This document shows positions 5,899-21,402 of a DNA stretch of 64,000 nt, piece by piece. This stretch comes from Candidatus Heimdallarchaeota archaeon (lineage in GTDB: Archaea > Asgardarchaeota > Heimdallarchaeia > Heimdallarchaeales > Kariarchaeaceae), in the NCBI GenBank assembly GCA_015523565.1, contig WAKA01000095.1, positions 18,383-82,382 on the forward strand. The letters are read 5' to 3'. The notes beneath the pieces were generated by a model. It searched no databases. It was not told where the DNA came from and worked only from the letters and a program-made list of their open reading frames with translations. Position numbers and translations under genes: made by a program. The stretch's first letter is position 1, and each line of letters opens with the position of its first letter.

Positions 5899-6839
5899 AC
5901 ATCCCATTCTATAGCCATTGTTCCCATTGAAAATCCAAGGCTTGTGCCTGACACCAAGATTTTCGACCCCTTTTTGATCAATCCATGTTCAATCCCATAA
6001 TTCAATTGAAACAGCAAATCATTGGTTCCCATGTGTGGCACTTCTTGAAGGCATTTCAATCCTGTTTTTTCCAATGGGAATTTCATTTGTTCCAACACCA
6101 TCTTGGTCGCTGCATATGTTGAACAACTTAAAGCAATAAAATCAATGTCTTTTGGATATGTTTTCATGGCAAGACATGCCTTTCGCATATGAGTTCCGAA
6201 TGTTTTCACCATGTAAGCTGAAAGCTCCTTTCCTTTCTGTAAATTTGCCAACTGATATTTTGCATCACTGTTCAGAACAAACATGTCTCTAAAATAAGGG
6301 TTTGTGCTTATTTCCACATATCTTATCATGTTTCCGTGATCTGCCTTGGAAAACGCAAATGCCCCAATAGAATCAGCAAAGATACAATTCCCGTCTGAAC
6401 AATTGTTTGTATATTGTGTTGTCATTTGAACTGATCCAACTATGATGTTTTCAATTTCTGGGTGTATGAAATGGGTTCCCGCGATCTGTGCGGCAACTGT
6501 AACCGAAGCACATCCAAGGGAAAAATCAAATCCAAATCCTTCAGCTCCTGGAAAGGCTTCCATTGTGACTGGGCTTGCTCCTTCTGGATGCCTGTCTATG
6601 CCATTATGAATCCCCAAAAACCCTTGAATGTCTTCTCCTGTCAATCCTGCCATTTCTGCTGTTTTCCTGACTTCACTTATGAGTACCTTGTCCCAATCAC
6701 TTTCATTTGAATAGACATAGGTTGCAGGAACAGGATTTCTACCAAGGACTGTTTTTGGAAGATTAAGCTCTTCAACTGCTATGCGCTTATCGCCCTTGTT
6801 GTAACTCCATCCAGAAAGAGAAAGGTTATCGAACTTCAT
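5895..6839 (-). CDS. FabH-like beta-ketoacyl synthase III / thiolase-fold condensing enzyme
   Basis: It has a thiolase-fold layout with an active-site Cys context (FSLGCASVTVAAQIAG). A His/Asn region (VPHMGTNDL) resembles the FabH HQAN motif, and the C-terminus (GTSLGFSMGTMAIEW) resembles the FabH GFGGGLTWG...W motif. It is divergently transcribed from accC. Confidence 0.65.
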   Translation of the reverse strand: MKFDNLSLSGWSYNKGDKRIAVEELNLPKTVLGRNPVPATYVYSNESDWDKVLISEVRKTAEMAGLTGEDIQGFLGIHNGIDRHPEGASPVTMEAFPGAEGFGFDFSLGCASVTVAAQIAGTHFIHPEIENIIVGSVQMTTQYTNNCSDGNCIFADSIGAFAFSKADHGNMIRYVEISTNPYFRDMFVLNSDAKYQLANLQKGKELSAYMVKTFGTHMRKACLAMKTYPKDIDFIALSCSTYAATKMVLEQMKFPLEKTGLKCLQEVPHMGTNDLLFQLNYGIEHGLIKKGSKILVSGTSLGFSMGTMAIEWDV

Positions 6840-6983: not shown

Positions 6984-7002
6984 CATGAAAAAAACTTGAA
7001 AC

Positions 7003-8481: not shown

Positions 8482-8482
8482 A

Positions 8483-9076
8483 ATGACTCATCCTGCAATC
8501 AAAAAATCAATGGAAGCACAGGAGAAGCTCAAAAAACAATCCCATGAAAAAGTGGAATTGCCTAAAGATTACCTAAAAGAATTCAAATCGTACGATATTG
8601 TATTTACAGGTCGAAAGTCCACACTTCTTTATAATGAAAAAACTGGTGAAATTATCATAGATGGCCAAATATATAAGCCACAAGTGATTGATTGTGGATC
8701 CCATTATGAAATTAAGGTTCTCGGAAAACATTCTTACAATGTATCTTATAGTGAAGGTCACATTTTCCTTGATGGACGGATGGTTGATTTCTCATTTACC
8801 CCTTCAGTCCCCAAACTCAAAAGAAAAGGAAAACACGGTGCCAATAAAATTGAAATCCGTTCTCCTCTACCTGGTGTGATTGTTGGTCTTCATGTCAAAG
8901 AAGGGGACATTGTCAAGCAGGGGGATAAAATTGCCACATTAGAGGCAATGAAAATGCAAAATGAGCTGGTCACCGACCAAGATGGAATTGTTGAAAAAAT
9001 ACATATCAAAATCAATGACCAAACAGAAACCAACCAAATTATTGCCCTGATCAACACCAAAATTGAAAGCAATTGA
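8483..9076 (+). CDS. accB: Biotin carboxyl carrier protein (biotinyl/lipoyl domain) with an N-terminal extension
   Basis: The C-terminal biotinyl domain has the EAMKMQNE biotinylation motif (Lys within AMKM). A PLPGVIV...VKEGDIVKQGD context precedes it. Confidence 0.85.
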   Translation: MTHPAIKKSMEAQEKLKKQSHEKVELPKDYLKEFKSYDIVFTGRKSTLLYNEKTGEIIIDGQIYKPQVIDCGSHYEIKVLGKHSYNVSYSEGHIFLDGRMVDFSFTPSVPKLKRKGKHGANKIEIRSPLPGVIVGLHVKEGDIVKQGDKIATLEAMKMQNELVTDQDGIVEKIHIKINDQTETNQIIALINTKIESN

Positions 9077-9152
9077 TATTCTATAGCTATAGTATAAAAG
9101 AAAACTCGACCTGCTCAGTTGATTTTAAAAACCAATCCGTTTATCCTGATAC

Positions 9153-10724
9153 ATGGGTAACCCCGGGAATGAGGAAACAACAGAAAAAAAAATCCAAAAA
9201 TTTCTTGAACTCAAAAAACAAGCCATGTTAGGCGGGGGGGAAAAACGAATCCATGCACAACATGAAAAAGGCAAGTATACTGCCCGTGAAAGAATTCAGT
9301 TGCTTATGGATCCAGGCTCTTTTGTAGAACTCGGGGGATTTGTAACGCATCACAAAACCGAATTTGGTCTTGACAAAAAAAAATATCTGGGTGACGGTGT
9401 TGTCACTGGCTACGGTCGTGTCAATGGCAGGCTGGTTTATGTCTATGCACAAGATTTTACGGTATTGGGCGGTTCTCTTGGAAATTCACACGCCAAAAAA
9501 ATTGTAAACATAATGAATCTTGCATTGAAAACTGGTGCTCCACTTGTCGGTTTCAATGATTCTGGTGGTGCCCGTATCCAAGAAGGTGTTGATGCCTTGG
9601 CAGGTTATGGTGAAATTTTCTTTCACAACGTTCTTGCTTCTGGTGTGATTCCCCAAATCTCTGTCATTGTTGGCCCTTCAGCAGGTGGCGCAGTTTATTC
9701 TCCTGCCCTAACTGACTTTATCATCATGACAAAAGAAACATCACATATGTTTGTCACTGGTCCATCTGTCGTAAAAACGGTCACTGGTGAGGACATTTCC
9801 TTTGAAGAACTTGGCGGGTCTACAACCCATACCCTGAAATCAGGAGTCGCACACTTTGACGGAGCAGACGAAAAGGAAAGTATCGAATTGATCAAGAAAA
9901 TTCTAAGCTACCTGCCATCAAACAACTTAGAGGATCCTCCCGTTATCACTCCAACTGATGATAAATCCCGAACCAGTGAAAAACTCAATCGCATCATTCC
10001 AGATGATTCCAAATTGCCATACGATATGAAAGAGGTAATAAAAGAAGTCGTGGATCATGGTGAATTCTTGGAAATCCAAGAAAAATGGGCTAAAAACATC
10101 ATTATAGGTTTTGCACGTTTGAATGGCTATCCTGTTGGAATTGTTGCAAACCAACCTCCTGTGCTTGCAGGCGCTCTTGATAGTGAGGCAAGTATAAAGG
10201 GTGCAAAGTTTGTCAGGTTATGTGATGCATTCAATATTCCCATTATTACCTTTGTTGATGTCCCTGGCTTTCTTCCAGGAGTGGATCAGGAATGGAAGGG
10301 AATTATCAGAAATGGCGCAAAGCTTCTTTATGCATATTGTGAAGCTACAGTTCCAAAAATTGCAGTAGTTACGAGAAAAGCATTTGGTGGCGCATATATT
10401 GTCATGTCTTCAAAACATTTGCGGACTGACGTCAATTTCGCATGGCCAATGGCGGAAATTGCAGTCATGGGATCGGAAGCGGCAGTCAACGTGATTTTCA
10501 GAAGGGATTTGGAAAAAGCTGAAGATCCAATTGCCAAACAAAAGGAAATAGAGGCAGAATACCGAGAAAAGTTCTATAACCCATATTCTGCGGCATCATT
10601 TGGATACATCGACGAGGTAATCCTCCCTTCAGAAACCAGACCAAAACTCATTGAAGCACTCTGGCCCCTACTGACAAAACGTGAAAATCGATTTCCCAAA
10701 AAACATGGTAATATCCCATTATAG
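9153..10724 (+). CDS. Acyl-CoA carboxylase carboxyltransferase subunit (PccB / methylmalonyl-CoA carboxyltransferase 12S family)
   Basis: It shows the fused N- and C-terminal carboxyltransferase architecture at 523 aa. Conserved stretches include DFTVLGGSLG, GARIQEG, GPSAGGAVYSPALTDF, PGFLPG..QEW.GIIRNGAKLLYA and RKAFGGAY. Confidence 0.9.
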   Translation: MGNPGNEETTEKKIQKFLELKKQAMLGGGEKRIHAQHEKGKYTARERIQLLMDPGSFVELGGFVTHHKTEFGLDKKKYLGDGVVTGYGRVNGRLVYVYAQDFTVLGGSLGNSHAKKIVNIMNLALKTGAPLVGFNDSGGARIQEGVDALAGYGEIFFHNVLASGVIPQISVIVGPSAGGAVYSPALTDFIIMTKETSHMFVTGPSVVKTVTGEDISFEELGGSTTHTLKSGVAHFDGADEKESIELIKKILSYLPSNNLEDPPVITPTDDKSRTSEKLNRIIPDDSKLPYDMKEVIKEVVDHGEFLEIQEKWAKNIIIGFARLNGYPVGIVANQPPVLAGALDSEASIKGAKFVRLCDAFNIPIITFVDVPGFLPGVDQEWKGIIRNGAKLLYAYCEATVPKIAVVTRKAFGGAYIVMSSKHLRTDVNFAWPMAEIAVMGSEAAVNVIFRRDLEKAEDPIAKQKEIEAEYREKFYNPYSAASFGYIDEVILPSETRPKLIEALWPLLTKRENRFPKKHGNIPL

Positions 10725-10835: not shown

Positions 10836-13800
10836 GTGATCAATATGAGTGGCAACGACTCCCAAAAAATAAAAATCGAAACTCCTGAAATCTATGATTA
10901 TGAACCTGTTGCAATTGTCGGTATTGGTGCAATCATGCCCGACGCACTTAATGCCAAGGAATTTTGGGAGAATATCAAATCTGGTAAAAACAGTATCACT
11001 GAAGTGCCCAAAGAACGATGGGATCCTGAATTGTTTTACGACCCTGACCCAAGTGTTCCAGACAAGACCTACACTAAAATCGGAGGTTTCATAAAAAATT
11101 TTGAGTTCAATGGAATTCAATTCCGTATTCCACCAAAAATTGCCAGTAAGCTTGACCCAATCCAACAAATGGCTTTGACTGCCGCAAAGGAGGCATTGGA
11201 AGACGCCAATTATGAATCCGATTCATTCAATAAAGAACGAACTGCCGTAATCTTAGGAAATTCTATGGGTGGCGAAATTGTTAGGCAATATACCAGAAGG
11301 GTCTATTTTCCTGAAATTGTCAGAACATTAAAACAAACAAAAGCCTTCAATACACTTGATCAGGATGCACAACAACAATTGTTAATTGAAGTTGAGAAAG
11401 AATATAAATCACATCTGGAAGAAATCACTGAAGATTCCATGCCTGGGGAGCTTGCCAATGTAATTGCCGGTCGTATTGCAAATGTTTTCAATCTTAGGGG
11501 AAAAAACATGACCACTGATGCAGCATGTGCATCCTCTATGGCCGCCATTGACGAGGCCTTCAAAAGCCTTGTGGCACATGAAGTCGATGCAGTCGTCTGT
11601 GGTGGTGCTGACAGGTCAATGGATGTCAGTACATATGTCAAATTTTGTAAAATTGGTGCACTGTCACCTGATGGATCATTTCCTTTCGATGCAAGGGCAA
11701 ATGGCTTTGTCATGGGTGAAGGTGTGGGATTCTTTGTCCTGAAACGTCTTTCAGATGCAATTCGAGATGGCAACAAAATTTATGCATTAATCAGGGGCGT
11801 GGGTTCATCATCTGATGGAAAAGGAAAAGGGATTACTGCCCCAAATCCAATAGGACAGCAACTTGCAATAGAAAGGGCATATAAGCTTGCAGGTATCTCA
11901 CCTGCTGAAGTGACATTAATTGAGGCTCATGGGACATCCACAAAAGTTGGTGACGTTGTTGAAGTCGAAACGTTGCATAAGGTATTCAACAAATACAATC
12001 TACCCAAACAAAGCATTGCATTAGGTTCAATCAAAAGCCAAATCGGACACCTGAAAAGTGCGGCTGGTGCAGCTGCGATCATAAAGACTGCTTTGGCATT
12101 ATATCACAAAATCTTGCCCCCCTCAATAAATTTCGAAACTCCCAATCCAAAAATTGATTGGAGCAATTCCCCCTTTTATGTCAACACACAAGCTAAAGAG
12201 TGGATTCATCCTTCAACAAAGCCACGTAAGGCAGGAGTGTCATCATTTGGTTTTGGAGGAACAAATTTCCACGTGGTAATGGAAGAATATGACCCAAATT
12301 TTGACTATTTTGCCCCCCTAAAGGAAAAGGAAAGGCATAAGGAAACAGAACCATTCGCCTTTCAAGAATTCATTGCCAAAAATAAACATCTCCAAGGAGA
12401 GGCATTTGCAATATCTGGCAAGGATGAAAGCGAATTAAAGGAAAATATTGAATTTTTCTTCAACAGCCTTCCCGAAAATACCTTCTTAGAAGACCCTGAA
12501 ATGCCTTCCCTAACAGAAATTCGAGATCAGGTCAAGTTCAAACCAAATGATGGCTATCGCGTCGCCTTTGCAGCTAATTCTTTGGAACAAATCCATGATA
12601 AAAAAGAAATAATCAACAAGGCAATCTTGACCCCTTCATTCCGAAAAGCGGCGCAGAAAAGAGGCATTTACTTCTCGCAAGATCTCCCAACAGGAAAAAT
12701 TGCATTTGTCTTCCCTGGTCAAGGGTCTCAATATGTAAACATGCTAAAAGACCTTCGTGACAGGTATGAAATAGTTCAGAAAACATTTGAAGAAGCAGAT
12801 ACGGTATTGGAGGAATTTCTAGGAAGAAAACTTTCTGAAATTATTTTTGCTTCCAATCATCAAATAAAGGATAATGAGGAGTTGCTTAAGCAAACCCAAT
12901 TCACCCAACCTGCAATGCTTACTGCCGATATTGCAATATTTAGATTGCTGAAAATGCATGGAATTGTCCCTGAAATGGTTGCAGGACACTCTCTCGGTGA
13001 ATATGCCGCATTGGTCGCTGCAGGTGTACTTTCGTTCCCAGACGCCTTGAAGGCAGTTGCCATAAGGGGAAGGGCTATGGCTAATGTTGATTCAGAAGAC
13101 AAGGGAACAATGGCGTCTGTCTCAGCTCCTTTTGAGAAGGTTCAGGAAGTGCTTAAGACAGTTGATGATTATGTAATTGCCGCTAACCTGAACAGTGTAA
13201 AAAGAATTGTCATTTCAGGGTCAACCCAAGGCGTCAAGAAAGCTATGGAAAAATTCAAGGAACTCGGCATTCAAACTGTTCCCTTATCTGTTTCTGCCGC
13301 TTTCCATACTGATATCGTTGCTCCAGCGGCAAAGGAACTTGCAGAGTTCCTAAAGACAATTGAATTCAAATCACCTCGCATTAAGGTTTCTTCGAATGTT
13401 CTTGGCGATTTTTACCCTGATGACCCTGATGAAATCAGGGCACTTCTTGAAAAACAAGTTGAATCCCCTGTTCATTGGATACAACAATGTGAAACCATGT
13501 ATCAAGCTGGAGCAAGAATTTTCTTTGAAGTGGGTCCAAAAAGGGCTCTTGCTACCTTTGTGCAAGAAAATCTTGAAGGGAAGGACATTGTCTCACAAAT
13601 CACAAATCATCCAAAGACAGGCGACATTTACCAATTCAATGATGCTATTGCATTGGCAAGAGCTTTGGGTATTCAGGTCTCATTTATTGATTTTGAATAT
13701 CCGAAACCAAAAGTCAAGCCAAAGAAAGCTGATCCTCTTCCAAAAATAAAACAGCAAATTACTGCTAAAACAGAATATAATCCAAATGAATTGGCCAATT

Positions 13801-16800
13801 TTGTTAAAACACAACCTTCTCTTCAAAAAATCATTAATGATGAGCTGTTTGAACAGTTTCTTAAACATCAAGGTCAAGCCTTCAATAATTTTCTTTTGGA
13901 GGCATTTGAGGGATTCAAGAAAACAATCAAGGAATCAAATGCCATTGCAGAAAAAGTACAGAGGCTTGGATTAAATCTTGATGACATTGTCATTACAGGA
14001 ACAGGTGTCGGACTTCCTGGAAAATTCAAGGAAATATTTGACGAACGTAATATTGAGCTGATATTGGATGGTTATAATTTCATTGACCCTGTAGGCGACC
14101 GAAAACTCAAACAACAAACCGACAAGAATATCGTAAAACTTGTCAAAAGGGATAGGGGTCAACCTACACTTGAGAAAATCAATAATATTAGGGATGTCAT
14201 AAAGCTTGCCGCCCAAGGAGGAAAATTTGACTTTGTCGAAGAATTCCAACTTGGTGAGAAAATTGTTGAAGCTTACGATAGAACCACAAAACTTGCCATC
14301 GCCGCTGGATTGGAGGCATTAAAGGATGCAGGCATCCCATTGGTCAGAAGCTATACAAAAACAAGCACTGGAAGTTATCTCCCTAGCGATTGGGTATTGC
14401 CAGAAGATCTACGCGAAGATACCGGTGTCATCTTTGCTTCCGCATTTCCAGGATATGACAGCTTAGTTCAGGAAATGACCAAGTTCTATGAAAGCAAATA
14501 TGCAGGAGAGGCATTGGATGTTCTAAGAAAAGTTTATGGCGAAATTGTCAGGAAATTGGGAAACAAGGATGAGTATAGGGAATTTGTCGAATTTCTGGAA
14601 CAGAATCTCAACGAACTTGAAGAACATAAGTCGGTCTACCAGTTCAACAGAAAATTCCTTTTCAAGATCCTCTCGATGGGTCATTCTCAATTTGCACAAC
14701 TTATCAAGGCGTATGGTCCCAACACACAGGTCAATGCCGCATGTGCATCCACAACACAAGCAGTTGGAATTGCCAATGATTGGATAAGATCTGGTAGATG
14801 CAAAAGAGTCATCCTCATTGGTGCAGATGATGCTTCAGGTGAAAACCTATTTGAATGGATAGGTTCTGGATTCTTGGCTTCAGGTGCAGCAACAACAAAA
14901 GAAAAGGTATCTGAAGCAGCCTTGCCATTTGACCGAAGAAGACATGGAATGATCATTGGAATGGGGGCAGTTGGAATTGTAATTGAAACAGCAGAAGAAG
15001 CAAAACGACGAGGCATTAAACCCATCGTCAAAATACTTGGGACATATTATTCCAATTCTGCATACCATGGAACAAGACTCGATGTCAATCATATTTCATA
15101 TGAATTGGAAAAATTCTTCAAAAAAATAAACGCGACCACTGGTCTGACTCCTGAACAGATTGCAAACTCTGCAATGTTCATGAGTCACGAGACATATACT
15201 CCTGCTAGAGGTGGGAGTGCCGCCGCTGAAATACAATCGCTCCGTCATGTCTTTGGTGAAAATGCTTCAAAGATCATCATTGCAAATACAAAAGGATTTA
15301 CTGGTCATCCAATGGGCGCAGGTATTGAAGACGCAATAGCAATCAAGGCACTGCAATACGGGAAAATTCCTCCAATTGCCAATTTCAAAGAACCTGATGA
15401 GACATTGGGAAACCTTTCCCTTTCCAAAGGTGGAAAATACAATGTCAAATATGCAATCCGTTTGGCCGCAGGCTTTGGATCACAGCTTGCATTCGCCCTT
15501 TATGAAAAGGCTGCGGGAATGGATAGGGAAACTCCTCAATATGAGCAATGGCTTAAATCAATTGGTGGCTCAAAGGCAGACCTAATTAAAGTTGGAAAGA
15601 CATTAAGATTAAAAGACAACGGACCACCAAAGAAATCAATCCAAAAGACCAAAATTGTCAAAAAAGTCAAATCCCCTACTCGACCCATTCCCGCAACAGT
15701 TGCAAAACAAAAATCAACACACGCAAATGACATCTTGGAATGGATCGCAAATGAAACTGGCTATCCAAAAGACCTTCTTGATGATTTTGTAAATCCTGTA
15801 AAGGATCTAGGAATAAATGCTCAGAAGCTCGCTTCTGTTGTAGGACAAACAAATGTTGATAATCTGACAATTGCAGATCTCAAAAAACTTTCTTTCAAAG
15901 ACACTTCACCCCAAAAATCCACCCCTATATCCACGAAACCTGACTCTCCAAAAGATGTGAAAGTTCAAAAACGAACAATGACATCTCAAGATGGTGTTAT
16001 CAAAGAAATTGTGAAAATTGTCGCTGAAAAGACGGGCTATCCTGAAGAAATGCTTGATCCCAATCTTGATATGGAGGCGGATTTGGGTATAGATACCGTT
16101 AAACAGGCTGAACTCTTCGGTTTGATACGGGAACATTACAATATTCCTTTGATTGAAGACCTTGATCTTTCTGAATATAACACCCTTGCAAAAATTGCGG
16201 ATTTTGTCAATGAGCATTCGTCATTTGAATCTAAAGCTACTGTTTCATCATCTTCCTCTTCCGCAAACATTGGCATTTCACAAGATCAAGATGAAATCAT
16301 TAAGACAATTACGTCTTTGATTGCCGAACAAACTGGTTATCCCAACGAAATGCTTGAACCCGACTTGGACATGGAAGCAGATCTGGGAATTGATACTGTC
16401 AAACAAGCAGAGTTGATTGGGATGATCCGAGATTATTACAACATCCCATTGATTGAAGACCTCGACATATCTGAATACAATACAATCCGTAGGATTGCTA
16501 ACTTTGTCATGGAATATGCACCCGCCTCCGACAAAAAACAGGTGGTAGTACATAAAGAGGCAAGAGATCAAGATAGGATTCTGAAAACTATCACATCAAT
16601 TATTGCAGAAAAAACTGGTTATCCTGAAGAGATGCTTGAACCTGACTTGGATATGGAGGCAGACTTGGGAATTGACACCGTGAAACAGGCAGAACTAATC
16701 GGTGTCATCAGGGAACACTACAATATCCCATTGATTGAAGACCTTGATATATCTGAATACAATACGATCCGAAAAATTAGTAAATTTGTCATTGAAAACA

Positions 16801-19800
16801 CAAAACCTACAACAGAAATAGAAAGAAAAGAAATTGAAGATGATAAAACTCCAATACTGCAAACGATTACAAAAATAATTGCAGAAAAAACTGGTTATCC
16901 TGAAGAGATGCTTGAACCTGACTTGGACATGGAAGCAGACTTGGGAATTGACACGGTGAAACAGGCAGAACTGATCGGTGTCATTAGAGAGCATTACAAC
17001 ATCCCATTGATTGAAGACCTTGACATATCTGAATACAATACCATTTCCAGAGTGGCGGATTTCGTCATGCAATATAAGCCACAAGAATCTAAGCCGCAAG
17101 AATCATCTCAAAAAGAAAAATCCAAGGAAAGGCAACAAGAAACCCAAAAGGAAAACGAAAAATCCAATGGTGAAATGCTGATCATCCAAAAACTGAAAGA
17201 AAAAGTTTCTGAACTGACTGGTTTCCCTGCAGAATTGGTTGAGGAAAATATCGACTTGGAAAAAGAAATGGGTATTGACAATGCACAAATATTACAGTTG
17301 ACAAAATCCCTCCTCGATGATTTAAATCTACCAGACATGAAAGTCACTGCAACAAGCATCAAGGAAATAGCACAAGAAATTTCAAAACTTTCGCCCTCTT
17401 CCCAAAAAACTTATCGGTACGTAATTGAGATGCAGGAATCACCTAGAACCCTTGATCCAAAGAACATTGATTTCATTGTCCTTACTGAAGAGAAATTGGA
17501 AAATGTCAAAACAGTGGATCTCGATGGTCTAGAACAAACTGAATGCAATCACCTATTGATATTGAATCCCAAACCTGATTTCAATATCTCCAAACTTTTT
17601 GAAATTCTGAAAGGGAAAATTGATGCACTAAAATCATTTGGCGTTGCAGAAACAATTTCAAGACCAAAATCCATAAACGATATCTCTCCAATTACAGGGG
17701 CAATTGGTGGCATGGCAAAAACCCTGATGCATGAGTTCAATATCAATGCAAAAATAATTGCCGCAAATGATCTCCGTGTCATATTGAATGAATTTACTGA
17801 TCAAAATCCCGATATTGAAGTCGTTTTTGATGGATCAAAACGCCTAGTGCCTGCATTGAAAGAAATGGATCTCCCTGTTCCCACTGACATCTCCCTTCCT
17901 AAAGGAAGCAATTTTATAGTCTCTGGAGGCGCTCAAGGAATTACCTTTGAATGTATCATGCCAATTGTAAAATCATCAGAAAACGTTCGGGTGATCCTTA
18001 TTGGTCGAACTGAAATTAAGGAAAATGCATCGGAAATTGCACAAATGTCTGATGAACAACTCAAAGAAAAGAAAAATGAACTTCTTGCACAATTAAAGGA
18101 AAAACATGAAAAAGTGACTCCAGTAATGCTGAACAAAGAATGGTCAAAAATCATAAAATCTGCCATTGTCTACCAGAATATTGAGAAATTGAAATCAATG
18201 GGTGCAGAAGTTGTATATATTCAATCAGACATTACTGCTCCCTCTCTCCCCGATAAAATTAAATCCAACATTATTCCTGACAAACCTGTTTTCATTGTCC
18301 ATGGTGCTGGTGTAGAAATATCAAAAGCAACAAAATCCAAACTCACCTCTGAATTTGAATTGGTTTACAACATAAAGGTTGTAGGCATTGAAAACCTCTT
18401 GAAATCAGTTAAACAAGAGAATGTCAAAAGAATCATTTCATTCACTTCTGTTGCTGGTCGTTTTGGAAATGCGACACAAATTGACTATTCTGCCGCAAAT
18501 GAATATCTTGCAAAACGAATGGCAATGCTAAAACGCCAAGGGGTCTCTGCAACCTCTATTGATTGGTCTGCATGGGCAGAGATTGGAATGGCAACAAAAG
18601 ACACGACAATGAAGGTATTACAGGCTGCGGGTGTAACCCCGATTCCTCTGAAAGACGGTGTTGCCCGTTTCCTTTCTGAATTCTTCAATTCCACCGAAGA
18701 CGAAGTCGTAATAAGCGGCAAACTGGGAATGTTGGCAAAAGGCACTAAATTCGTAAAAAATGACAAAATACCTCTTCCAGCAACAGAAAACAAGAAAAAA
18801 CTATCGTCCCAGAAGCAAAGAAAAGAAGAAGGTGCAAGGAAACAGGAAGCACAAGCTAAATCTGAATCAACCCAAAAGATGGTGACGATAAAAGAACCTC
18901 AAACTGAAAAAACAAAAGAAATAGCGAAAACAAGAGCACCTAACCAAATCAAATCACAATTACATAAGGAACAACCTGTCACAAAAAAAGAACAGAAGAC
19001 ATTCCCCATTCTTAATCCTGAATTTCCTATGATGCATGGAACAATAACAATCAACAAAATTATTGCGGGTAAAAAAGTGTTGAACTTAGAACAGGATTTG
19101 TATCTTGATGACCATCGTATTGACGGAAAAGCTGTTCTCCCCGGTGTTATGGGTCTTGAGTTTTTCACTGAGTTTGTAAACTATCATGGTGGCAAGGTAA
19201 CAGGGATGAGATCTGTTGTTTTTTCATCCCCTGTCAAACTTCCAAAAGACAAGCCCCTTGAAATTTTTGTCATTCCAGAAAAAGTTACTGGTTTGAATTC
19301 AATCAAACTTACTCTCAAATCTAAATTCATTGGTCCAGATGGCAAACAACTAGGGGATCTCCGACCCCATTTTGTTGCAGAAATTATTGAAGGAGAATTA
19401 GCTCCTGGTTATCCCTTCCTTCCCGCAACACAATCAAAATGGTTCATTAAGGAGAACTTGGTGATTCCTAAGGAAAAGATCTATGAAGTCTTTTTCCATG
19501 GACCTTCATTCCAAGTCCTTGACGGAATCATAAATTTGGGTGCCAACAGTATTTCTGCCGTATACAATGAACCTAATGAACCCCTGTTCCCTGACAAGAA
19601 TGCATCTGTGCACCTTGCACCTAGACTTATTGAGGCATGTTTCCAAACAGCAGGCATGTATGATTTACTCATCAATAAAACCATGTCCCTTCCAAATGGC
19701 ATTACAAAAATTCAACTCTACCAAGGATTTGAGAATGCAAAATATATCCATGCCACCCAAACAAGATCAAAGAACAATATTTCCCATTATAACGTCTTTG

Positions 19801-20567
19801 CATTGGACAAAGACCTAAACGTTGTTCTTGAACTGATTAACTATGAAATGATCCACACTGGCACAACAGAAATACCTTTCAATACACCTGAAACCGTTGA
19901 TGAACCTGTTGTTGCAGAATTGATGCATCACGTGGGTCAAATCACTCCGTTGGCAGTTTCAATCTCAACAGAAGCAATGGAACACATCAATGAAGAATTC
20001 CTCGACGCATATTTACTACCCTCTGAAAAAGTAATCTATGCTCGATTCAAAGTGCCAAAAAGGAAAATGGAGTGGCTCGCTGGAACTATCGCCGCAAAAA
20101 AGGCAATTTCTCTAACATTCAATGTCCCTGAAACTGAAGTGGAAATAATTAAAAACAAAAACGGGAAACCTGGTGGAATCTTTGAAGGAATTGAATATCC
20201 TGTCACCAAAACCCATTCAAATGGTGTTGCCATTGCATTGTCACACCCTGATGGTGGTGTAGGCATTGATATTGAAAAAATAGAGCCAAGAGATCCTTCA
20301 TTAATTAAAACCGCCTTCACCAATGACGAAATCAAGCGGTTCCAGATTAAGCCTGATAAACATAAGCTCATCACCCAACTCTGGTCTATAAAAGAAGCAA
20401 GCCTAAAGGCAATAGGAACTGGTTTGAAAACATCACTGAAAGACACAATCATCAAAAAATCGAGCAAAAGCAAAAGATATACCGTCCAAATCAAAAAGAA
20501 ATTGTTGTCAATAACATCTGTCACAACTGATGATTGGGTTGTCACTTTGGCTATACTGAATCAATGA
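10836..20567 (+). CDS. Type I PfaA/PKS-like iterative megasynthase: KS-AT-KS-(carrier-like x6)-KR-DH-PPTase, 3243 aa
   Basis: It is a single uninterrupted ORF. Catalytic motifs for each domain are listed in the sub-features below. The tandem carrier domains and overall layout resemble PUFA / secondary-lipid synthases (PfaA-like). Confidence 0.9.
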   Translation: MINMSGNDSQKIKIETPEIYDYEPVAIVGIGAIMPDALNAKEFWENIKSGKNSITEVPKERWDPELFYDPDPSVPDKTYTKIGGFIKNFEFNGIQFRIPPKIASKLDPIQQMALTAAKEALEDANYESDSFNKERTAVILGNSMGGEIVRQYTRRVYFPEIVRTLKQTKAFNTLDQDAQQQLLIEVEKEYKSHLEEITEDSMPGELANVIAGRIANVFNLRGKNMTTDAACASSMAAIDEAFKSLVAHEVDAVVCGGADRSMDVSTYVKFCKIGALSPDGSFPFDARANGFVMGEGVGFFVLKRLSDAIRDGNKIYALIRGVGSSSDGKGKGITAPNPIGQQLAIERAYKLAGISPAEVTLIEAHGTSTKVGDVVEVETLHKVFNKYNLPKQSIALGSIKSQIGHLKSAAGAAAIIKTALALYHKILPPSINFETPNPKIDWSNSPFYVNTQAKEWIHPSTKPRKAGVSSFGFGGTNFHVVMEEYDPNFDYFAPLKEKERHKETEPFAFQEFIAKNKHLQGEAFAISGKDESELKENIEFFFNSLPENTFLEDPEMPSLTEIRDQVKFKPNDGYRVAFAANSLEQIHDKKEIINKAILTPSFRKAAQKRGIYFSQDLPTGKIAFVFPGQGSQYVNMLKDLRDRYEIVQKTFEEADTVLEEFLGRKLSEIIFASNHQIKDNEELLKQTQFTQPAMLTADIAIFRLLKMHGIVPEMVAGHSLGEYAALVAAGVLSFPDALKAVAIRGRAMANVDSEDKGTMASVSAPFEKVQEVLKTVDDYVIAANLNSVKRIVISGSTQGVKKAMEKFKELGIQTVPLSVSAAFHTDIVAPAAKELAEFLKTIEFKSPRIKVSSNVLGDFYPDDPDEIRALLEKQVESPVHWIQQCETMYQAGARIFFEVGPKRALATFVQENLEGKDIVSQITNHPKTGDIYQFNDAIALARALGIQVSFIDFEYPKPKVKPKKADPLPKIKQQITAKTEYNPNELANFVKTQPSLQKIINDELFEQFLKHQGQAFNNFLLEAFEGFKKTIKESNAIAEKVQRLGLNLDDIVITGTGVGLPGKFKEIFDERNIELILDGYNFIDPVGDRKLKQQTDKNIVKLVKRDRGQPTLEKINNIRDVIKLAAQGGKFDFVEEFQLGEKIVEAYDRTTKLAIAAGLEALKDAGIPLVRSYTKTSTGSYLPSDWVLPEDLREDTGVIFASAFPGYDSLVQEMTKFYESKYAGEALDVLRKVYGEIVRKLGNKDEYREFVEFLEQNLNELEEHKSVYQFNRKFLFKILSMGHSQFAQLIKAYGPNTQVNAACASTTQAVGIANDWIRSGRCKRVILIGADDASGENLFEWIGSGFLASGAATTKEKVSEAALPFDRRRHGMIIGMGAVGIVIETAEEAKRRGIKPIVKILGTYYSNSAYHGTRLDVNHISYELEKFFKKINATTGLTPEQIANSAMFMSHETYTPARGGSAAAEIQSLRHVFGENASKIIIANTKGFTGHPMGAGIEDAIAIKALQYGKIPPIANFKEPDETLGNLSLSKGGKYNVKYAIRLAAGFGSQLAFALYEKAAGMDRETPQYEQWLKSIGGSKADLIKVGKTLRLKDNGPPKKSIQKTKIVKKVKSPTRPIPATVAKQKSTHANDILEWIANETGYPKDLLDDFVNPVKDLGINAQKLASVVGQTNVDNLTIADLKKLSFKDTSPQKSTPISTKPDSPKDVKVQKRTMTSQDGVIKEIVKIVAEKTGYPEEMLDPNLDMEADLGIDTVKQAELFGLIREHYNIPLIEDLDLSEYNTLAKIADFVNEHSSFESKATVSSSSSSANIGISQDQDEIIKTITSLIAEQTGYPNEMLEPDLDMEADLGIDTVKQAELIGMIRDYYNIPLIEDLDISEYNTIRRIANFVMEYAPASDKKQVVVHKEARDQDRILKTITSIIAEKTGYPEEMLEPDLDMEADLGIDTVKQAELIGVIREHYNIPLIEDLDISEYNTIRKISKFVIENTKPTTEIERKEIEDDKTPILQTITKIIAEKTGYPEEMLEPDLDMEADLGIDTVKQAELIGVIREHYNIPLIEDLDISEYNTISRVADFVMQYKPQESKPQESSQKEKSKERQQETQKENEKSNGEMLIIQKLKEKVSELTGFPAELVEENIDLEKEMGIDNAQILQLTKSLLDDLNLPDMKVTATSIKEIAQEISKLSPSSQKTYRYVIEMQESPRTLDPKNIDFIVLTEEKLENVKTVDLDGLEQTECNHLLILNPKPDFNISKLFEILKGKIDALKSFGVAETISRPKSINDISPITGAIGGMAKTLMHEFNINAKIIAANDLRVILNEFTDQNPDIEVVFDGSKRLVPALKEMDLPVPTDISLPKGSNFIVSGGAQGITFECIMPIVKSSENVRVILIGRTEIKENASEIAQMSDEQLKEKKNELLAQLKEKHEKVTPVMLNKEWSKIIKSAIVYQNIEKLKSMGAEVVYIQSDITAPSLPDKIKSNIIPDKPVFIVHGAGVEISKATKSKLTSEFELVYNIKVVGIENLLKSVKQENVKRIISFTSVAGRFGNATQIDYSAANEYLAKRMAMLKRQGVSATSIDWSAWAEIGMATKDTTMKVLQAAGVTPIPLKDGVARFLSEFFNSTEDEVVISGKLGMLAKGTKFVKNDKIPLPATENKKKLSSQKQRKEEGARKQEAQAKSESTQKMVTIKEPQTEKTKEIAKTRAPNQIKSQLHKEQPVTKKEQKTFPILNPEFPMMHGTITINKIIAGKKVLNLEQDLYLDDHRIDGKAVLPGVMGLEFFTEFVNYHGGKVTGMRSVVFSSPVKLPKDKPLEIFVIPEKVTGLNSIKLTLKSKFIGPDGKQLGDLRPHFVAEIIEGELAPGYPFLPATQSKWFIKENLVIPKEKIYEVFFHGPSFQVLDGIINLGANSISAVYNEPNEPLFPDKNASVHLAPRLIEACFQTAGMYDLLINKTMSLPNGITKIQLYQGFENAKYIHATQTRSKNNISHYNVFALDKDLNVVLELINYEMIHTGTTEIPFNTPETVDEPVVAELMHHVGQITPLAVSISTEAMEHINEEFLDAYLLPSEKVIYARFKVPKRKMEWLAGTIAAKKAISLTFNVPETEVEIIKNKNGKPGGIFEGIEYPVTKTHSNGVAIALSHPDGGVGIDIEKIEPRDPSLIKTAFTNDEIKRFQIKPDKHKLITQLWSIKEASLKAIGTGLKTSLKDTIIKKSSKSKRYTVQIKKKLLSITSVTTDDWVVTLAILNQ
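10900..12290 (+). other. Domain: ketosynthase 1 (KS, Cys-His-His type)
   Basis: Motifs are EPVAIVGIG, the active-site TDAACASS (Cys codon 11526-11528), EAHGTSTKVGD and GSIKSQIGHLKSAAG. Confidence 0.9.
12695..13560 (+). other. Domain: acyltransferase (malonyl-type AT)
   Basis: Motifs are FVFPGQGSQY and GHSLGEYAAL (Ser codon 12990-12992). The specificity region SVSAAFHTDIV (xAFH) resembles the malonyl-specific HAFH/GAFH motif rather than YASH. Confidence 0.9.
13975..15515 (+). other. Domain: second ketosynthase-like domain (retains Cys and both His, so not an obvious chain-length factor)
   Basis: Motifs are VITGTGVGLPG and VNAACASTTQA (Cys codon 14742-14744). The His regions are SHETYTPARGG and NTKGFTGHPMGAG. 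An insert of about 80 aa follows the N-terminal strand. Confidence 0.75.
15721..15897 (+). other. Domain: degenerate carrier-protein-like domain (Ala at the attachment position)
   Basis: The sequence ILEWIANETGYPKDLLDDFVNPVKDLGINAQKLASVV aligns with the repeats downstream. The motif reads GINAQ instead of GIDS/T. Confidence 0.4.
15990..17075 (+). repeat. Four tandem in-frame carrier-protein (PP-binding-like) domain repeats, period about 276-300 bp
   Basis: Four copies have the consensus ..I(A)E(K/Q)TGYP(E/N)EMLEPDLDMEADLGIDTVKQAELIG.IREHYNIPLIEDLDISEYNT... Copies 3 and 4 are near-identical at nucleotide level over more than 150 nt (compare 16602-16770 with 16878-17046). Confidence 0.85.
17175..17391 (+). 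other. Domain: degenerate carrier-protein-like domain (Asn at the attachment position)
   Basis: The sequence is LIIQKLKEKVSELTGFPAELVEENIDLEKEMGIDNAQILQLTKSLLDDLNL. It has the same helix pattern as the repeats, but the motif reads GIDNA. Confidence 0.4.
17400..18740 (+). other. Domain: ketoreductase (structural pseudo-KR subdomain plus catalytic SDR subdomain)
   Basis: The Rossmann motif is NFIVSGGAQGITFE (about 17905-17950). A catalytic Tyr context is IDYSAANEYLAK (about 18481-18515). About 160 aa of N-terminal structural half precede it, as in PKS/PfaA KRs. Confidence 0.8.
19000..19860 (+). other. Domain: PKS-type (double hot-dog) dehydratase
   Basis: The HxxxGxxxxP motif is LDDHRIDGKAVLPGV (His codon 19113-19115). 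The second-half motif is HLAPRLIEACFQ, which resembles HPxLLDxxxQ with Glu in place of Asp. Confidence 0.75.
20030..20564 (+). other. Domain: C-terminal Sfp-type 4'-phosphopantetheinyl transferase
   Basis: The ordered PPTase motifs are KRKMEWLAGTIAAKKAI, KNGKPGG, KTHSNGVAIALS, GVGIDIEKI, FTNDEIKRF and LWSIKEASLKAIGTGL. Confidence 0.7.
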
Positions 20568-20589
20568 CAAGTTAACGAAGAAAATATTA

Positions 20590-21402
20590 ATGGCATATGA
20601 AATTCAAATTATGATTGATTTAACAGGCAAACGAGCAATCGTTTTTGGTGTCGCCTCAGAAACAAGCATTGCTTGGGCAATTTCAAAATGGCTTGCCAAA
20701 GCCGGTGCAAAAATCACCCTTTCATATCAAAAACGCTTTAGATCCCGTATTTACTCATTGACCAAAGATGTTGACTTCATCGAGGGGATGCATGAGTGCG
20801 ATGTTGCTTATGACGATCAGGTAAGGGATTTCTTTGCAAACTTGGACGGGAAATTTGATATGGTCGTACATGCAATCGGCTATGCTCCTGCAACCGCATT
20901 GAGCAAACCTATTATCTACACTTCCGAAGAGGATTTCAACACTGCAATGGTGATCTCTGCATATTCTCTGCAAAGAATTGTCAGGCATGCCATGAGGGTG
21001 TTGAACCCAAACAGTGCCTTTCTTACGCTGACATATTTGGGTGCTGTCCGTGTGGTTCCTGGATACCGAATTATGGGCGTTGCCAAAGCCGCTTTAGAGG
21101 CATTTGTCAGGGAGCTTTCTGTCAACATAGGTCTTGCTGGTCATCGTATCAATGCAATTTCCTCAGGACCAATTAAAACTCTTGCAGCAAGTCATGTCCC
21201 TGGATTTGACAACATCCTTGAGTATATGCAACATGCATCCCCGCTAAGACGAAACGTCGTACAGGATGATGTTGCCAAAACGGCTCTGTTTTTACTGAGT
21301 GATTTGAGCTCAGGCATAACTGGCCAAACAATCTATGTTGATACAGGCTTTTCCAGCGTTGCTCTTCCTGCTGATATTGACAAGCTCAAATTTGAGGATT
21401 AA
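20590..21402 (+). CDS. fabI: Enoyl-[acyl-carrier-protein] reductase, FabI type (SDR)
   Basis: FabI signatures are GKRAIVFGVASETSIAWAISK, the Tyr/Lys region LTYLGAVRVVPGYRIMGVAKAALEA, INAISSGPIKTLAAS and ITGQTIYVDTG. It starts 22 nt after the megasynthase stop. Confidence 0.9.
   Translation: MAYEIQIMIDLTGKRAIVFGVASETSIAWAISKWLAKAGAKITLSYQKRFRSRIYSLTKDVDFIEGMHECDVAYDDQVRDFFANLDGKFDMVVHAIGYAPATALSKPIIYTSEEDFNTAMVISAYSLQRIVRHAMRVLNPNSAFLTLTYLGAVRVVPGYRIMGVAKAALEAFVRELSVNIGLAGHRINAISSGPIKTLAASHVPGFDNILEYMQHASPLRRNVVQDDVAKTALFLLSDLSSGITGQTIYVDTGFSSVALPADIDKLKFED

What the first reader, a model, noticed from the sequence alone, without database searches (positions are those of the whole stretch)
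15721..17391. None of the six carrier-protein-like domains has the canonical phosphopantetheinyl serine; the four core repeats all carry threonine
Carrier proteins are modified on the Ser of the (D/H)S(L/I) motif; PUFA synthase ACPs read LGIDSIKRVE. Here all four well-conserved tandem domains read DLGIDTVKQAEL. The Thr codons are ACC (16095-16097), ACT (16395-16397), ACC (16677-16679) and ACG (16953-16955). Three different synonymous codons encode the same residue, so Thr is a conserved feature rather than a sequencing artefact. The two flanking degenerate domains have Ala (GINAQK) and Asn (GIDNAQ) at that position. The same polypeptide ends in a PPTase domain. This suggests a dedicated PPTase that modifies Thr, giving a Thr-linked 4'-phosphopantetheine. 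Alternatively the array may be non-canonical and possibly unmodified. I am not aware of a described Thr-type carrier array.
Basis: partly seen in the sequence, partly recalled or inferred. Interest (0 to 1): 0.75.

Follow-up and report, generated by a model that had tools for sequence, protein, structure and literature searches.

The report
Threonine-type acyl carrier domains
An archaeal fatty-acid/polyketide megasynthase, and a whole widespread family of related enzymes, has threonine where every characterised acyl carrier protein has the serine that holds the phosphopantetheine arm; this implies an undescribed threonine-linked cofactor attachment, which has not been shown directly.

Summary
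The window encodes a 3243-aa protein (10836-20567, +) with the order KS-AT-KS-[6 carrier-like domains]-KR-DH-PPTase. Sequence alignment to solved ACPs and a confident AlphaFold model both place Thr at the first residue of helix II, the position of Ser36 in E. coli ACP. This holds for all four core domains. The two flanking degenerate domains have Ala and Asn there.

The feature is not peculiar to this gene. It marks the "Type R" Pfa-like secondary-lipid synthases described by Shulse & Allen in 2011, whose product is unknown. That paper never mentions Ser or Thr.
- 120 loci from species-representative genomes gave 307 Thr and 2 Ser.
- Of 50 diverse proteins with the Type R architecture, 49 have Thr-type arrays and 1 has a Ser-type array.
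- An Sfp-type PPTase with all catalytic residues is adjacent or fused.
- No conserved Ser exists elsewhere in the domain.

The host is an archaeon, probably Heimdallarchaeota. In that clade one orthologue has an all-Ser array and another a Ser-Thr-Ser array, each with the same fused PPTase. Thr and Ser therefore look functionally interchangeable at this site.

The best reading is that Thr is the phosphopantetheinylation site (about 0.7). This is inferred, not shown. I found no description of it in the literature I could search. E. coli ACP S36T is the standard non-modifiable mutant.

The parts
10836..20567 (+). Megasynthase ORF, 3243 aa from GTG. Public gene calls give 3240 aa, which implies a start at ATG 10845. 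Domain order: KS-AT-KS-6 carrier-like domains-KR-DH-PPTase.
   Evidence: ORF list and translation; Pfam domains; passes the NCBIfam TIGR02813 omega_3_PfaA cutoff, 1131 vs 1010.1 bits; gene call of 3240 aa.
10902..12137 (+). KS1, ketosynthase with Cys-His-His present (TDAACASS, EAHGTST, GSIKSQIGH).
   Evidence: Pfam ketoacyl-synt and Ketoacyl-synt_C, aa 23-434; motifs read from the translation.
12705..13595 (+). Acyltransferase (malonyl-type; GHSLGEY, AAFH).
   Evidence: Pfam Acyl_transf_1, aa 624-920; NCBIfam fabD-like hit.
14223..15605 (+). Second KS, called 'CLF' in Shulse & Allen. It retains the active-site Cys (VNAACAS), so it is probably catalytic.
   Evidence: Pfam partial hits; homologues are 48-59% identical, best to Heimdallarchaeota; the Cys motif is conserved in homologues.
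15717..15905 (+). Degenerate, truncated carrier-like domain 1. Ala (GCT 15819-15821) occupies the attachment column.
   Evidence: Family HMM hit, iE 4.9e-7, covering HMM positions 4-49 only; alignment.
15987..16217 (+). Core carrier domain 2, DLGIDTVKQAEL, Thr codon ACC 16095-16097.
16287..16517 (+). Core carrier domain 3, DLGIDTVKQAEL, Thr codon ACT 16395-16397.
16569..16802 (+). Core carrier domain 4, DLGIDTVKQAEL, Thr codon ACC 16677-16679. This is the domain that was modelled.
   Evidence: AF2 pLDDT 92.3 with Thr as the first residue of helix II; Foldseek matches to ACPs.
16845..17075 (+). Core carrier domain 5, DLGIDTVKQAEL, Thr codon ACG 16953-16955.
17184..17390 (+). Degenerate carrier-like domain 6. 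Asn (AAT 17280-17282) occupies the attachment column.
   Evidence: Family HMM hit, iE 6.4e-8; alignment. Similar degenerate flanking domains occur in the closest homologues P0380, P0489 and P0413.
17913..18581 (+). Ketoreductase.
   Evidence: Pfam KR, aa 2360-2582.
19074..19853 (+). PKS-type dehydratase (HxxxGxxxxP present: HRIDGKAVLP).
   Evidence: Pfam PKS_DH_N and PS-DH, aa 2747-3006; motif read from the translation.
19983..20564 (+). C-terminal Sfp-type 4'-phosphopantetheinyl transferase domain (GKP, THS, GIDIEK, WSIKEASLKAIG).
   Evidence: Pfam ACPS, aa 3141-3238; phmmer alignment to Sfp 15-167 and human AASDHPPT; the catalytic positions are conserved in 40 PPTases linked to Thr-type arrays.
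7003..10724 (+). Acetyl-CoA carboxylase genes, the malonyl-CoA supply: biotin carboxylase 7003-8481, BCCP 8483-9076, carboxyltransferase 9153-10724.
   Evidence: Pfam.
5895..6839 (-). FabH-like KAS III (weak match); possible primer condensing enzyme.
   Evidence: Pfam ACP_syn_III_C 7.8e-9; NCBIfam FabH-type hits far below cutoff.
20590..21402 (+). FabI-like enoyl reductase; probably the trans-acting ER of the system.
   Evidence: Pfam adh_short_C2 2.1e-69; NCBIfam FabI models at E about 1e-72, below the equivalog cutoffs.

Best explanation
The four core domains are genuine, working acyl carrier domains of an iterative Pfa-like (Type R) fatty-acid/polyketide synthase. In this family Thr has replaced Ser as the acceptor of the cofactor arm. 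The Sfp-type PPTase fused to the C-terminus, a separate adjacent gene in most bacteria, transfers 4'-phosphopantetheine from CoA onto the Thr side-chain hydroxyl at the N-terminus of helix II. The resulting thiol arms then carry malonyl and acyl intermediates between KS1, AT, KS2, KR and DH and the neighbouring FabI-like ER. The adjacent acetyl-CoA carboxylase supplies malonyl-CoA. The two flanking domains (Ala, Asn) are decayed copies that cannot be modified and probably act as spacers.

Shown here: the Thr position, the fold, family-wide conservation, PPTase linkage and intact catalytic motifs, and natural Ser/Thr interchange among orthologues.

Inferred, not shown: that Thr is actually modified, and why Thr is preferred. 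Possible reasons, all speculative, are insulation from housekeeping AcpS-type enzymes, insulation from AcpH-type phosphodiesterases, or a phosphodiester more resistant to beta-elimination.
For: 1. Thr occupies exactly the Ser36 column and the helix II N-terminus.
2. Conservation is extreme and at the protein level. The 120 loci from species-representative genomes gave 307 Thr, 2 Ser and 17 domains truncated at locus ends, with all four Thr codons in use. Those loci were selected with a Thr-specific DNA pattern, so they show purity within arrays, not family frequency. In a sample chosen through the KS2 domain, not the ACP, 34 of 34 motifs were Thr. Among diverse 50%-identity representatives with KS2 directly upstream of the array, 49 were Thr-type and 1 Ser-type.
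3. Across 274 Thr-type domains no other column has a conserved Ser (maximum 25%).
4. There is no other carrier domain in the protein or in the 64-kb window. The host is an archaeon (RadA, Archease, Ras GTPase). From general knowledge, not tested here, archaea normally lack ACP and PPTase.
5. A PPTase is fused or adjacent. It was found in 40 of the 8-kb loci and in 21 fused representatives. Sfp residues G74, P76, S89, H90, G105, D107, E109, E127, W147, K150, E151 and K155 are conserved at 80-100%.
6. KS, AT, KR and DH motifs are intact, and ACC, FabH-like and FabI-like genes flank the megasynthase.
7. Orthologues in the same Heimdallarchaeota clade carry all-Ser arrays (MCY3414055.1 = P0413; KS2 63.5% identical to the window's) or Ser-Thr-Ser arrays (Ca. 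Heimdallarchaeum aukensis, L019), with the same fused PPTase. They sit inside Thr-type clades in an NJ tree of KS2. Natural interchange of Ser and Thr at one column is what would be expected if both serve as the attachment site.
Against: There is no direct evidence of modification, no mass spectrometry and no structure. In E. coli, ACP S36T is used as the non-modifiable control (PMC3340395), so at least AcpS-type enzymes reject Thr. A secondary alcohol is a poorer and more hindered nucleophile. The PPTase domains show no motif-level adaptation that distinguishes Thr-serving from Ser-serving orthologues, so no sequence feature explains Thr acceptance. The NJ tree has no support values. The product of Type R synthases is unknown.
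Confidence: 0.7

Rival explanations
1. The Thr-type domains are never phosphopantetheinylated. The array is a structural or scaffolding pseudo-carrier, and intermediates travel on CoA or on a separate Ser-type ACP encoded elsewhere.
For: E. coli AcpS does not modify ACP S36T. From general knowledge, archaeal fatty-acid metabolism has been proposed to be ACP-independent. The flanking domains show that non-modifiable carrier-like domains are tolerated in this protein.
Against: A catalytically intact PPTase is fused or adjacent across many phyla and would have no substrate. The helix II recognition surface and the attachment-column residue are 100% conserved, which is stronger than expected for a spacer. 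No other ACP lies in the protein or the window. Orthologues with Ser at the same column exist. The degenerate flanking domains show what decay looks like when constraint is lost, and the core domains do not look like that.
Confidence: 0.13
2. Thr is modified, but by a different group or enzyme than the linked PPTase, for example another nucleotide-derived prosthetic group; or the Thr hydroxyl carries acyl groups directly as oxoesters.
For: Nothing positive was found. It is listed only because the chemistry at Thr is unobserved.
Against: The linked enzyme is a canonical Sfp-type PPTase with CoA- and Mg-binding residues conserved. No other modifying enzyme is conserved in the neighbourhoods inspected. 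Without a long arm, a carrier could not reach the KS, KR and DH active sites (established mechanism of FAS/PKS; inference).
Confidence: 0.05
3. The linked PPTase modifies only Ser-type domains, as in P0413 and L019. All-Thr arrays such as this window's are inactivated relics of a decaying pathway.
For: Ser-type and mixed orthologues exist in Heimdallarchaeota. This protein has two clearly decayed domains.
Against: Thr-type is the overwhelming majority state across bacteria and archaea, and it is maintained through all four synonymous codons. The rest of the 3243-aa ORF is intact with all catalytic motifs. In the KS2 tree the Ser-type members are nested within Thr-types, so Ser looks derived, not ancestral.
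Confidence: 0.07
4. Sequencing, assembly or frame artefact.
For: None.
Against: Three different Thr codons occur in four repeats that are 64-80% identical at the DNA level. The same contig is present in four independent datasets. Hundreds of homologues share the motif.
Confidence: 0.01

Closest known systems
Type R secondary-lipid (Pfa-like) synthase of Shulse & Allen 2011 (PMC3098273): Ca. Koribacter versatilis, Ca. Solibacter usitatus, Elusimicrobium minutum, Roseiflexus spp.
   Same: [quoted passage not shown] KS2 homologues from Acidobacteriota, Elusimicrobiota and Chloroflexota are about 50% identical to the window's. Loci from those same phyla carry DLGxDTVKQAE arrays.
   Different: Here the DH and the PPTase are fused into the same polypeptide, the host is an archaeon, and two degenerate carrier-like domains flank the array. 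The paper does not mention that the ACPs have Thr (0 occurrences of 'threonine' or 'serine'). The product of Type R clusters is uncharacterised.
PfaA of bacterial PUFA synthases (TIGR02813; tandem ACPs with LGIDSIKRVEI)
   Same: The protein passes the TIGR02813 cutoff. It has tandem ACP domains in a beads-on-a-string array, the same TGYP...EADLGID...K...E framework, and KS-AT-ACPn-KR-DH order.
   Different: PfaA ACPs have Ser followed by I-K-R-V-E. The Thr-type has T-V-K-Q-A-E, with V(+1) 100%, Q(+3) 99% and A(+4) 100%. PfaA has no KS between AT and the ACPs. No pfaB, pfaC or pfaD partners are in the window; the neighbours are FabH-like, FabI-like and ACC genes.
Enediyne PKSE (e.g. CalE8, SgcE) and the fungal FAS alpha subunit: megasynthases with a C-terminal in-cis PPTase
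   Same: A PPTase domain is fused at the C-terminus of the synthase it presumably activates. The PKSE order KS-AT-ACP-KR-DH-PPTase (from general knowledge) resembles this one. Fungal FAS alpha PPTase chains appear among the PDB hits of the window's PPTase domain.
   Different: Those systems use a single Ser-type ACP, have no second KS and are not close by sequence. The window's PPTase is Sfp-type with two half-domains, whereas the fungal FAS PPTase is AcpS-like.
E. coli ACP Ser36 / AcpS
   Same: Same fold and same helix II N-terminal attachment position.
   Different: In E. coli the S36T substitution abolishes modification and function (PMC3340395). Here Thr is the natural, conserved residue.

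Membership tests
Acyl carrier protein / PP-binding domain (PF00550) | Profile match above the curated threshold | tested here: met
   PF00550 scores 132.8 bits against a cutoff of 20.8, over 5 stretches.
Acyl carrier protein / PP-binding domain (PF00550) | Small helical-bundle ACP fold with the attachment residue at the N-terminus of helix II | tested here: met
   AF2 pLDDT 92.3; helices at 2-19, 40-54 and 70-81; Thr40 starts helix II. Foldseek TM about 0.8 to solved ACPs.
Acyl carrier protein / PP-binding domain (PF00550) | Conserved Ser in the (D/H)S(L/I) motif as the phosphopantetheine acceptor | tested here: not met
   Thr in four domains, Ala and Asn in two.
Acyl carrier protein / PP-binding domain (PF00550) | Post-translational 4'-phosphopantetheinylation | not testable with these tools
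   Needs mass spectrometry or a labelling assay.
Type R secondary-lipid synthase (Shulse & Allen 2011) | pfaA homologue with KS-MAT-CLF-ACP(3-6)-KR | tested here: met
   Pfam order KS, AT, second KS, 4 (+2 degenerate) ACP, KR. Definition taken.
Type R secondary-lipid synthase (Shulse & Allen 2011) | PPTase encoded immediately downstream | tested here: met
   Present as a C-terminal fusion. It is a separate adjacent gene in the Anaerolineae loci L005 and L006.
Type R secondary-lipid synthase (Shulse & Allen 2011) | KS phylogenetic grouping with the named Type R members (Koribacter, Solibacter, Elusimicrobium, Roseiflexus) | tested here: inconclusive
   KS2 is about 50% identical to proteins from Acidobacteriota, Elusimicrobiota and Chloroflexota MAGs. 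The named type strains themselves could not be fetched.
PfaA, PUFA synthase subunit A (TIGR02813) | Whole-protein score above the NCBIfam cutoff | tested here: met
   1131 bits against a cutoff of 1010.1.
PfaA, PUFA synthase subunit A (TIGR02813) | Operon partners PfaB (AT), PfaC (KS-CLF-DH2) and PfaD (ER) | tested here: not met
   The neighbours are ACC subunits, a FabH-like gene and a FabI-like gene. No pfaB, pfaC or pfaD is in the window.
PfaA, PUFA synthase subunit A (TIGR02813) | Tandem ACPs with the LGIDSIKRVEI signature | tested here: not met
   The signature here is DLGIDTVKQAEL, and the column statistics separate the two classes.
Sfp-type (group II) PPTase | Roughly 230-aa two-lobed domain with the conserved CoA/Mg and catalytic residues (Sfp H90, D107, E109, E127, W147, K150, E151, K155) | tested here: met
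   Alignment to Sfp 15-167 and human AASDHPPT. Residues are conserved in 40 linked PPTases. AASDHPPT_N plus ACPS Pfam hits occur in the archaeal orthologues.
Sfp-type (group II) PPTase | Transfers Ppant to a carrier-domain Ser | not testable with these tools
   The only carrier domains in cis have Thr. Activity on Thr or Ser needs an enzyme assay.

The most novel reading that the evidence does not exclude
O-(4'-phosphopantetheinyl)-threonine is a natural, previously unrecognised protein modification. It would be the standard cofactor linkage of an entire phylum-spanning family of Pfa-like synthases found in Acidobacteriota, Chloroflexota, Actinomycetota, Elusimicrobiota, Myxococcota and Heimdallarchaeota. 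These synthases would travel with their own Thr-competent Sfp-type PPTase as a self-contained module, insulated from host ACP-modifying enzymes. In Heimdallarchaeota that module would supply a complete bacterial-type, ACP-dependent fatty-acid synthase.
Probability: 0.6. Interest if true: 0.85.

Novelty: new variant of a known kind. Interest (0 to 1): 0.78.

Why it matters
In every characterised carrier protein the phosphopantetheine arm is attached to Ser. The PROSITE and Pfam definitions, genome-mining tools and mutational controls (S->T or S->A as "dead" ACP) all assume this.

A large natural family with strictly conserved Thr would add a new cofactor linkage. It would also show that some Sfp-type PPTases accept a secondary alcohol, and it could provide an orthogonal carrier/PPTase pair for engineering. 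Annotation pipelines that require Ser could miss or mislabel these carrier domains; I did not test this.

The claim is easy to test, because cultured hosts and simple E. coli co-expression are available. Separately, the host is a probable Heimdallarchaeote carrying ACC, a FabH-like gene, this megasynthase and a FabI-like gene. That bears on whether Asgard archaea can make fatty acids by a bacterial-type ACP-dependent route, which is part of the 'lipid divide' question.

Tried and rejected
1. Literature. Ten full-text searches found no description of a Thr-type carrier or of Thr phosphopantetheinylation. They covered motif strings such as DTVKQ and GIDTVK, threonine with phosphopantetheine in several phrasings, Asgard or Heimdall with ACP/PKS, and Type R host names. 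Subscription-only papers are not covered, so absence is not proof.

2. An alternative conserved Ser in the domain. None exists. The 'SEYNT' Ser of the window's repeats is Arg in most homologues.

3. A separate Ser-type ACP in the window. None was found with the family HMM or with E. coli ACP as query.

4. PPTase adaptation to Thr. I aligned 40 PPTases linked to Thr-type arrays with Sfp, and compared Ser-serving, mixed and Thr-serving Heimdall orthologues. All canonical residues are kept and no discriminating position emerged. The comparison is underpowered, with only two Ser-serving sequences, and no complex modelling was possible.

5. My first regex survey for Ser within Thr-type loci was too strict and missed the Ser-Thr-Ser array of L019. 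The HMM-based survey replaced it.

6. Searching with the L019 array for more mixed arrays returned mostly an unrelated ACP2-SDR family (DLGIDSVKLGE) and no new mixed arrays.

7. Strict covariation of Thr with Val at +1 and Ser with Ile at +1, as a volume-compensation rule. It holds for Thr-type versus PfaA-type, and in L019 and P0459. It is broken by P0413 (DSVK) and P0389 (DTIT), so I do not rely on it.

8. GC content as a sign of recent horizontal transfer. The cluster is 39.8% GC and the rest of the window 36.2%, which is a small and inconclusive difference.

Full report
**What is there.** The finding lies inside one 3243-aa ORF (10836-20567, + strand). Public gene calls give 3240 aa, which implies a start at ATG 10845. 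Pfam gives the following order:
- KS at aa 23-434
- AT at aa 624-920
- a second KS-like domain at about aa 1130-1590
- PP-binding in 5 stretches, 132.8 bits
- KR at aa 2360-2582
- PKS-type DH at aa 2747-3006
- ACPS-superfamily PPTase at aa 3141-3238

The protein passes the NCBIfam PfaA subfamily cutoff, 1131 against 1010.1 bits. The catalytic motifs are intact in the translation: KS1 Cys-His-His, AT GHSLG, DH HxxxGxxxxP, and PPTase GIDIEK and WSIKEASLK.

**Check of the observation.** The Thr codons are ACC 16095-97, ACT 16395-97, ACC 16677-79 and ACG 16953-55. Ala (15819-21) and Asn (17280-82) occupy the same column in the two flanking domains.

Three independent lines place Thr at the phosphopantetheine attachment position:
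- phmmer against PDB aligns DLGIDTVKQAEL with DLGADSLDTVEL of E. coli ACP and with the Plasmodium ACP DLGADSLDLVEL.
- A MAFFT alignment of the six domains with E. coli ACP gives the same column.
- An AlphaFold2 model of the third core domain (window 16560-16811; mean pLDDT 92.3) has helix II starting exactly at the Thr. The model superposes on solved ACPs at TM about 0.8 and rmsd 1.4-1.7 A.

A family-specific HMM detects all six domains. The two flanking ones are weak and partial (iE about 1e-7), and the first is truncated after helix II. The four core repeats are only 64-80% identical at the DNA level. The same contig occurs in four independent assemblies. This is not an artefact.

**It is a family-wide trait.**
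- Searching 5.8 billion proteins with the four-domain array returned tandem-ACP proteins that fall cleanly into two classes. Of the top 120, 92 had only Thr, 28 had only Ser, and none was mixed.
- Column statistics on 274 Thr-type and 99 Ser-type domains show that the framework is shared (TGYP...EADLG[IV]D-x-[VI]K). The attachment residue co-varies with its neighbours. The Thr-type has T 100%, V(+1) 100%, Q(+3) 99% and A(+4) 100%. The PUFA-synthase type has S-I-K-R-V. No other column of the Thr-type domain has a conserved Ser; the maximum is 25%.
The hits span Acidobacteriota, Chloroflexota, Actinomycetota (including cultured Mycolicibacterium xanthum and an Amycolatopsis strain), Elusimicrobiota, Myxococcota, Gemmatimonadota, Rhodothermales and Heimdallarchaeota.
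- An HMM survey of those loci found 307 Thr and 2 Ser, plus 17 domains truncated at locus ends. Thr is encoded by all four codons: ACC 157, ACG 120, ACA 14 and ACT 14. These loci were picked with a Thr-specific pattern, so they show purity within arrays, not how common Thr-type arrays are.
- A sample chosen through the KS2 domain, blind to the ACP sequence, gave 34 of 34 Thr.
- An exhaustive profile search of 1.84 billion 50%-identity representatives found 7466 proteins at E<=1e-3 and 1651 at E<=1e-30. Among the 138 new top representatives, 88 were Thr-only and 34 Ser-only. The other 16 were mostly Thr-type domains plus degenerate ones.

**What the family is.** Every Thr-type representative that could be checked has the extra KS directly upstream of the array: 49 of 49, at 41-72% identity to the window's KS2. 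Of the 35 Ser-type representatives tabulated in that check (the 34 Ser-only ones plus P0446, whose sixth domain is truncated), only one does; the rest are ordinary PfaA-type or a 'DSIKKAQL' class.

The neighbourhoods of two Anaerolineae homologues show the same order split into separate genes: acyl-CoA-dehydrogenase-like, KS-AT-KS, multi-ACP(Thr), KR/DH and PPTase, with ACC subunits nearby. This is the 'Type R' secondary-lipid synthase of Shulse & Allen 2011. They define it as a pfaA homologue with KS-MAT-CLF-ACP(3-6)-KR followed by a PPTase gene, sometimes with ACC. They report it from Koribacter, Solibacter, Elusimicrobium and Roseiflexus, with an uncharacterised product (PMC3098273). That paper contains no occurrence of 'threonine' or 'serine'. 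None of my ten full-text searches found any description of Thr-type carriers or Thr phosphopantetheinylation. By contrast, E. coli ACP S36T is used as the variant that 'cannot be post-translationally modified by 4'-PP' (PMC3340395).

**The host and the cluster.** The window is archaeal:
- RadA at 62600-63547 (Pfam Rad51, 4.7e-67) and DUF5814
- Archease and RtcB
- a Ras-family GTPase at 36084-36596 (6e-57) and many ORFans

The closest KS2 and whole-protein homologues are labelled Candidatus Heimdallarchaeota. One FabI cluster-mate at >=90% identity is labelled Euryarchaeota/Methanobacteriota in NCBI, so the phylum assignment is probable, not certain.

Around the megasynthase lie a FabH-like gene (5895-6839, - strand), biotin carboxylase, BCCP and carboxyltransferase (7003-10724), and a FabI-like enoyl reductase (20590-21402). 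Together these form a self-sufficient malonyl-CoA-fed fatty-acid/polyketide system. No other carrier domain occurs in the 64 kb.

**The PPTase.** The C-terminal domain aligns with Sfp residues 15-167 and with human AASDHPPT. It has the GKP, H, GIDIE and W-x-x-KE-x-x-K motifs. A PPTase was found fused or adjacent in 40 of the 8-kb loci and in 21 fused representatives, 20 of them Thr-type. Across the 40, the Sfp catalytic and CoA/Mg-binding positions G74, P76, S89, H90, G105, D107, E109, E127, W147, K150, E151 and K155 are 80-100% conserved. The enzyme is therefore under selection as an active PPTase. In an archaeon, the Thr-type array in cis is its only visible substrate.

**Ser/Thr interchange among orthologues.** This is the most informative new result.
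- Ca. Heimdallarchaeum aukensis PM71 (complete genome CP084166.1, locus L019) encodes the same fused AT-KS-ACP3-KR-DH-PPTase. Its array reads Ser-Thr-Ser: DLGIDSIKAAEI, DLGIDTVKQAEIF, DLGVDSIKIAEI.
- A Heimdallarchaeota MAG protein, MCY3414055.1 (P0413, 3234 aa), also has a fused PPTase. It is 47% identical to the window protein over 2220 aa, and its KS2 is 63.5% identical. Its array is all-Ser (DLGIDSVKVAEIF), with two degenerate domains like the window's.
- P0459 is Ser-Thr-Thr. P0375 and P0398 have four Thr-type domains plus one divergent Ser-type domain.

In an NJ tree of KS2 (57 sequences, no support values), P0413 sits inside the window's clade and L019 sits elsewhere among Thr-types. 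All other members of the tree are Thr-type. The parsimonious reading is Ser->Thr at the origin of Type R, followed by at least two Thr->Ser reversions in Heimdallarchaeota. The PPTase domains of the Ser, mixed and Thr orthologues show no motif-level difference.

**Interpretation.** Several facts point to Thr as the acceptor of the phosphopantetheine arm:
- Thr sits at the exact acceptor position of an otherwise canonical and highly constrained ACP.
- There is no alternative Ser in the domain.
- An active-looking PPTase is always linked.
- The surrounding synthase is complete.
- Ser and Thr interchange naturally at this one column in orthologues that share the same PPTase.

I put this at about 0.7. 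What remains unshown is the modification itself, whether the PPTase is Thr-specific or merely tolerant, and why Thr is so strongly preferred outside a few archaeal lineages. Insulation from housekeeping AcpS or AcpH, or greater stability of a Thr phosphodiester, are speculation.

The main rival is an unmodified pseudo-carrier array, at about 0.13. It has to explain away the conserved PPTase, the 100% conservation of the acceptor column and the Ser-bearing orthologues. The two flanking domains of this very protein show what loss of constraint looks like. Relic arrays (about 0.07), other chemistry at Thr (about 0.05) and artefact (about 0.01) are less likely.

**Novelty and score.** The gene-cluster type was catalogued in 2011, so the synthase is a member of a known kind. 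The Thr acceptor is, as far as I could establish, undescribed. It contradicts the defining feature of carrier proteins. I rate it a new variant of a known kind, interest 0.78. A specialist would be surprised, the trait is widespread, and a one-week co-expression and MS experiment would settle it.

Noticed in passing
window 5895-21402: An archaeal contig carries a complete bacterial-type fatty-acid synthesis cluster: a FabH-like gene, biotin carboxylase, BCCP, carboxyltransferase, the Type R megasynthase with fused PPTase, and a FabI-like ER. This bears on whether Heimdallarchaeota can make fatty acids through an ACP-dependent route, and on horizontal transfer of this module between bacteria and Asgard archaea.
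   Followed up: partly
window 14223-15605: The domain called 'CLF' in the Type R definition keeps the active-site Cys (VNAACAS) here and in nearly all of 120 homologues. It is probably a second active ketosynthase, not a chain-length factor.
   Followed up: partly
L019 3501-4433 (Ca. Heimdallarchaeum aukensis PM71, CP084166.1); P0413 (MCY3414055.1): Orthologous fused megasynthases in Heimdallarchaeota have a Ser-Thr-Ser array and an all-Ser array respectively. They are natural 'mutants' that could be used directly to test PPTase specificity.
   Followed up: yes
window 15717-15905 and 17184-17390; also P0380, P0489, P0413: Degenerate carrier-like domains lacking any hydroxyl residue at the attachment column flank the functional array. 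They recur in the closest (Heimdall-clade) homologues, which suggests a conserved structural role and not random decay.
   Followed up: partly
window 17071-17104: A short 15-bp tandem repeat (2.3 copies) encodes a repeated SKPQE unit in the Lys/Glu/Gln-rich linker between core domain 5 and degenerate domain 6.
   Followed up: no
window 36084-36596: Ras-family small GTPase (Pfam Ras 6.3e-57), followed by two ORFs of 430 and 462 aa with no Pfam match. This is the kind of eukaryote-like signature protein typical of Asgard archaea.
   Followed up: no
window 62600-63547; 56190-57218; 4444-5895; 21399-21836: Archaeal markers that identify the host domain: RadA (Rad51 family), DUF5814, RtcB and Archease. 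A FabI cluster-mate at >=90% identity is labelled Euryarchaeota/Methanobacteriota in NCBI, so public taxonomy labels for this lineage are inconsistent.
   Followed up: partly
window 2022-3812; 42556-47052: A methyl-accepting chemotaxis protein, a PAS histidine kinase and a response regulator lie on the same archaeal contig.
   Followed up: no
P0242-P0349: A separate, abundant family of proteins with two or three tandem ACPs (DLGIDSVKLGE) fused to an SDR/KR domain turned up when searching with the L019 array. These are Ser-type and unrelated to Type R.
   Followed up: no
L063 4904-5680: In an uncultured archaeon the fused Thr-type megasynthase is followed directly by an alpha/beta-hydrolase (Hydrolase_4, Peptidase_S9). 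This is a candidate product-releasing thioesterase that is absent from the window's cluster.
   Followed up: no
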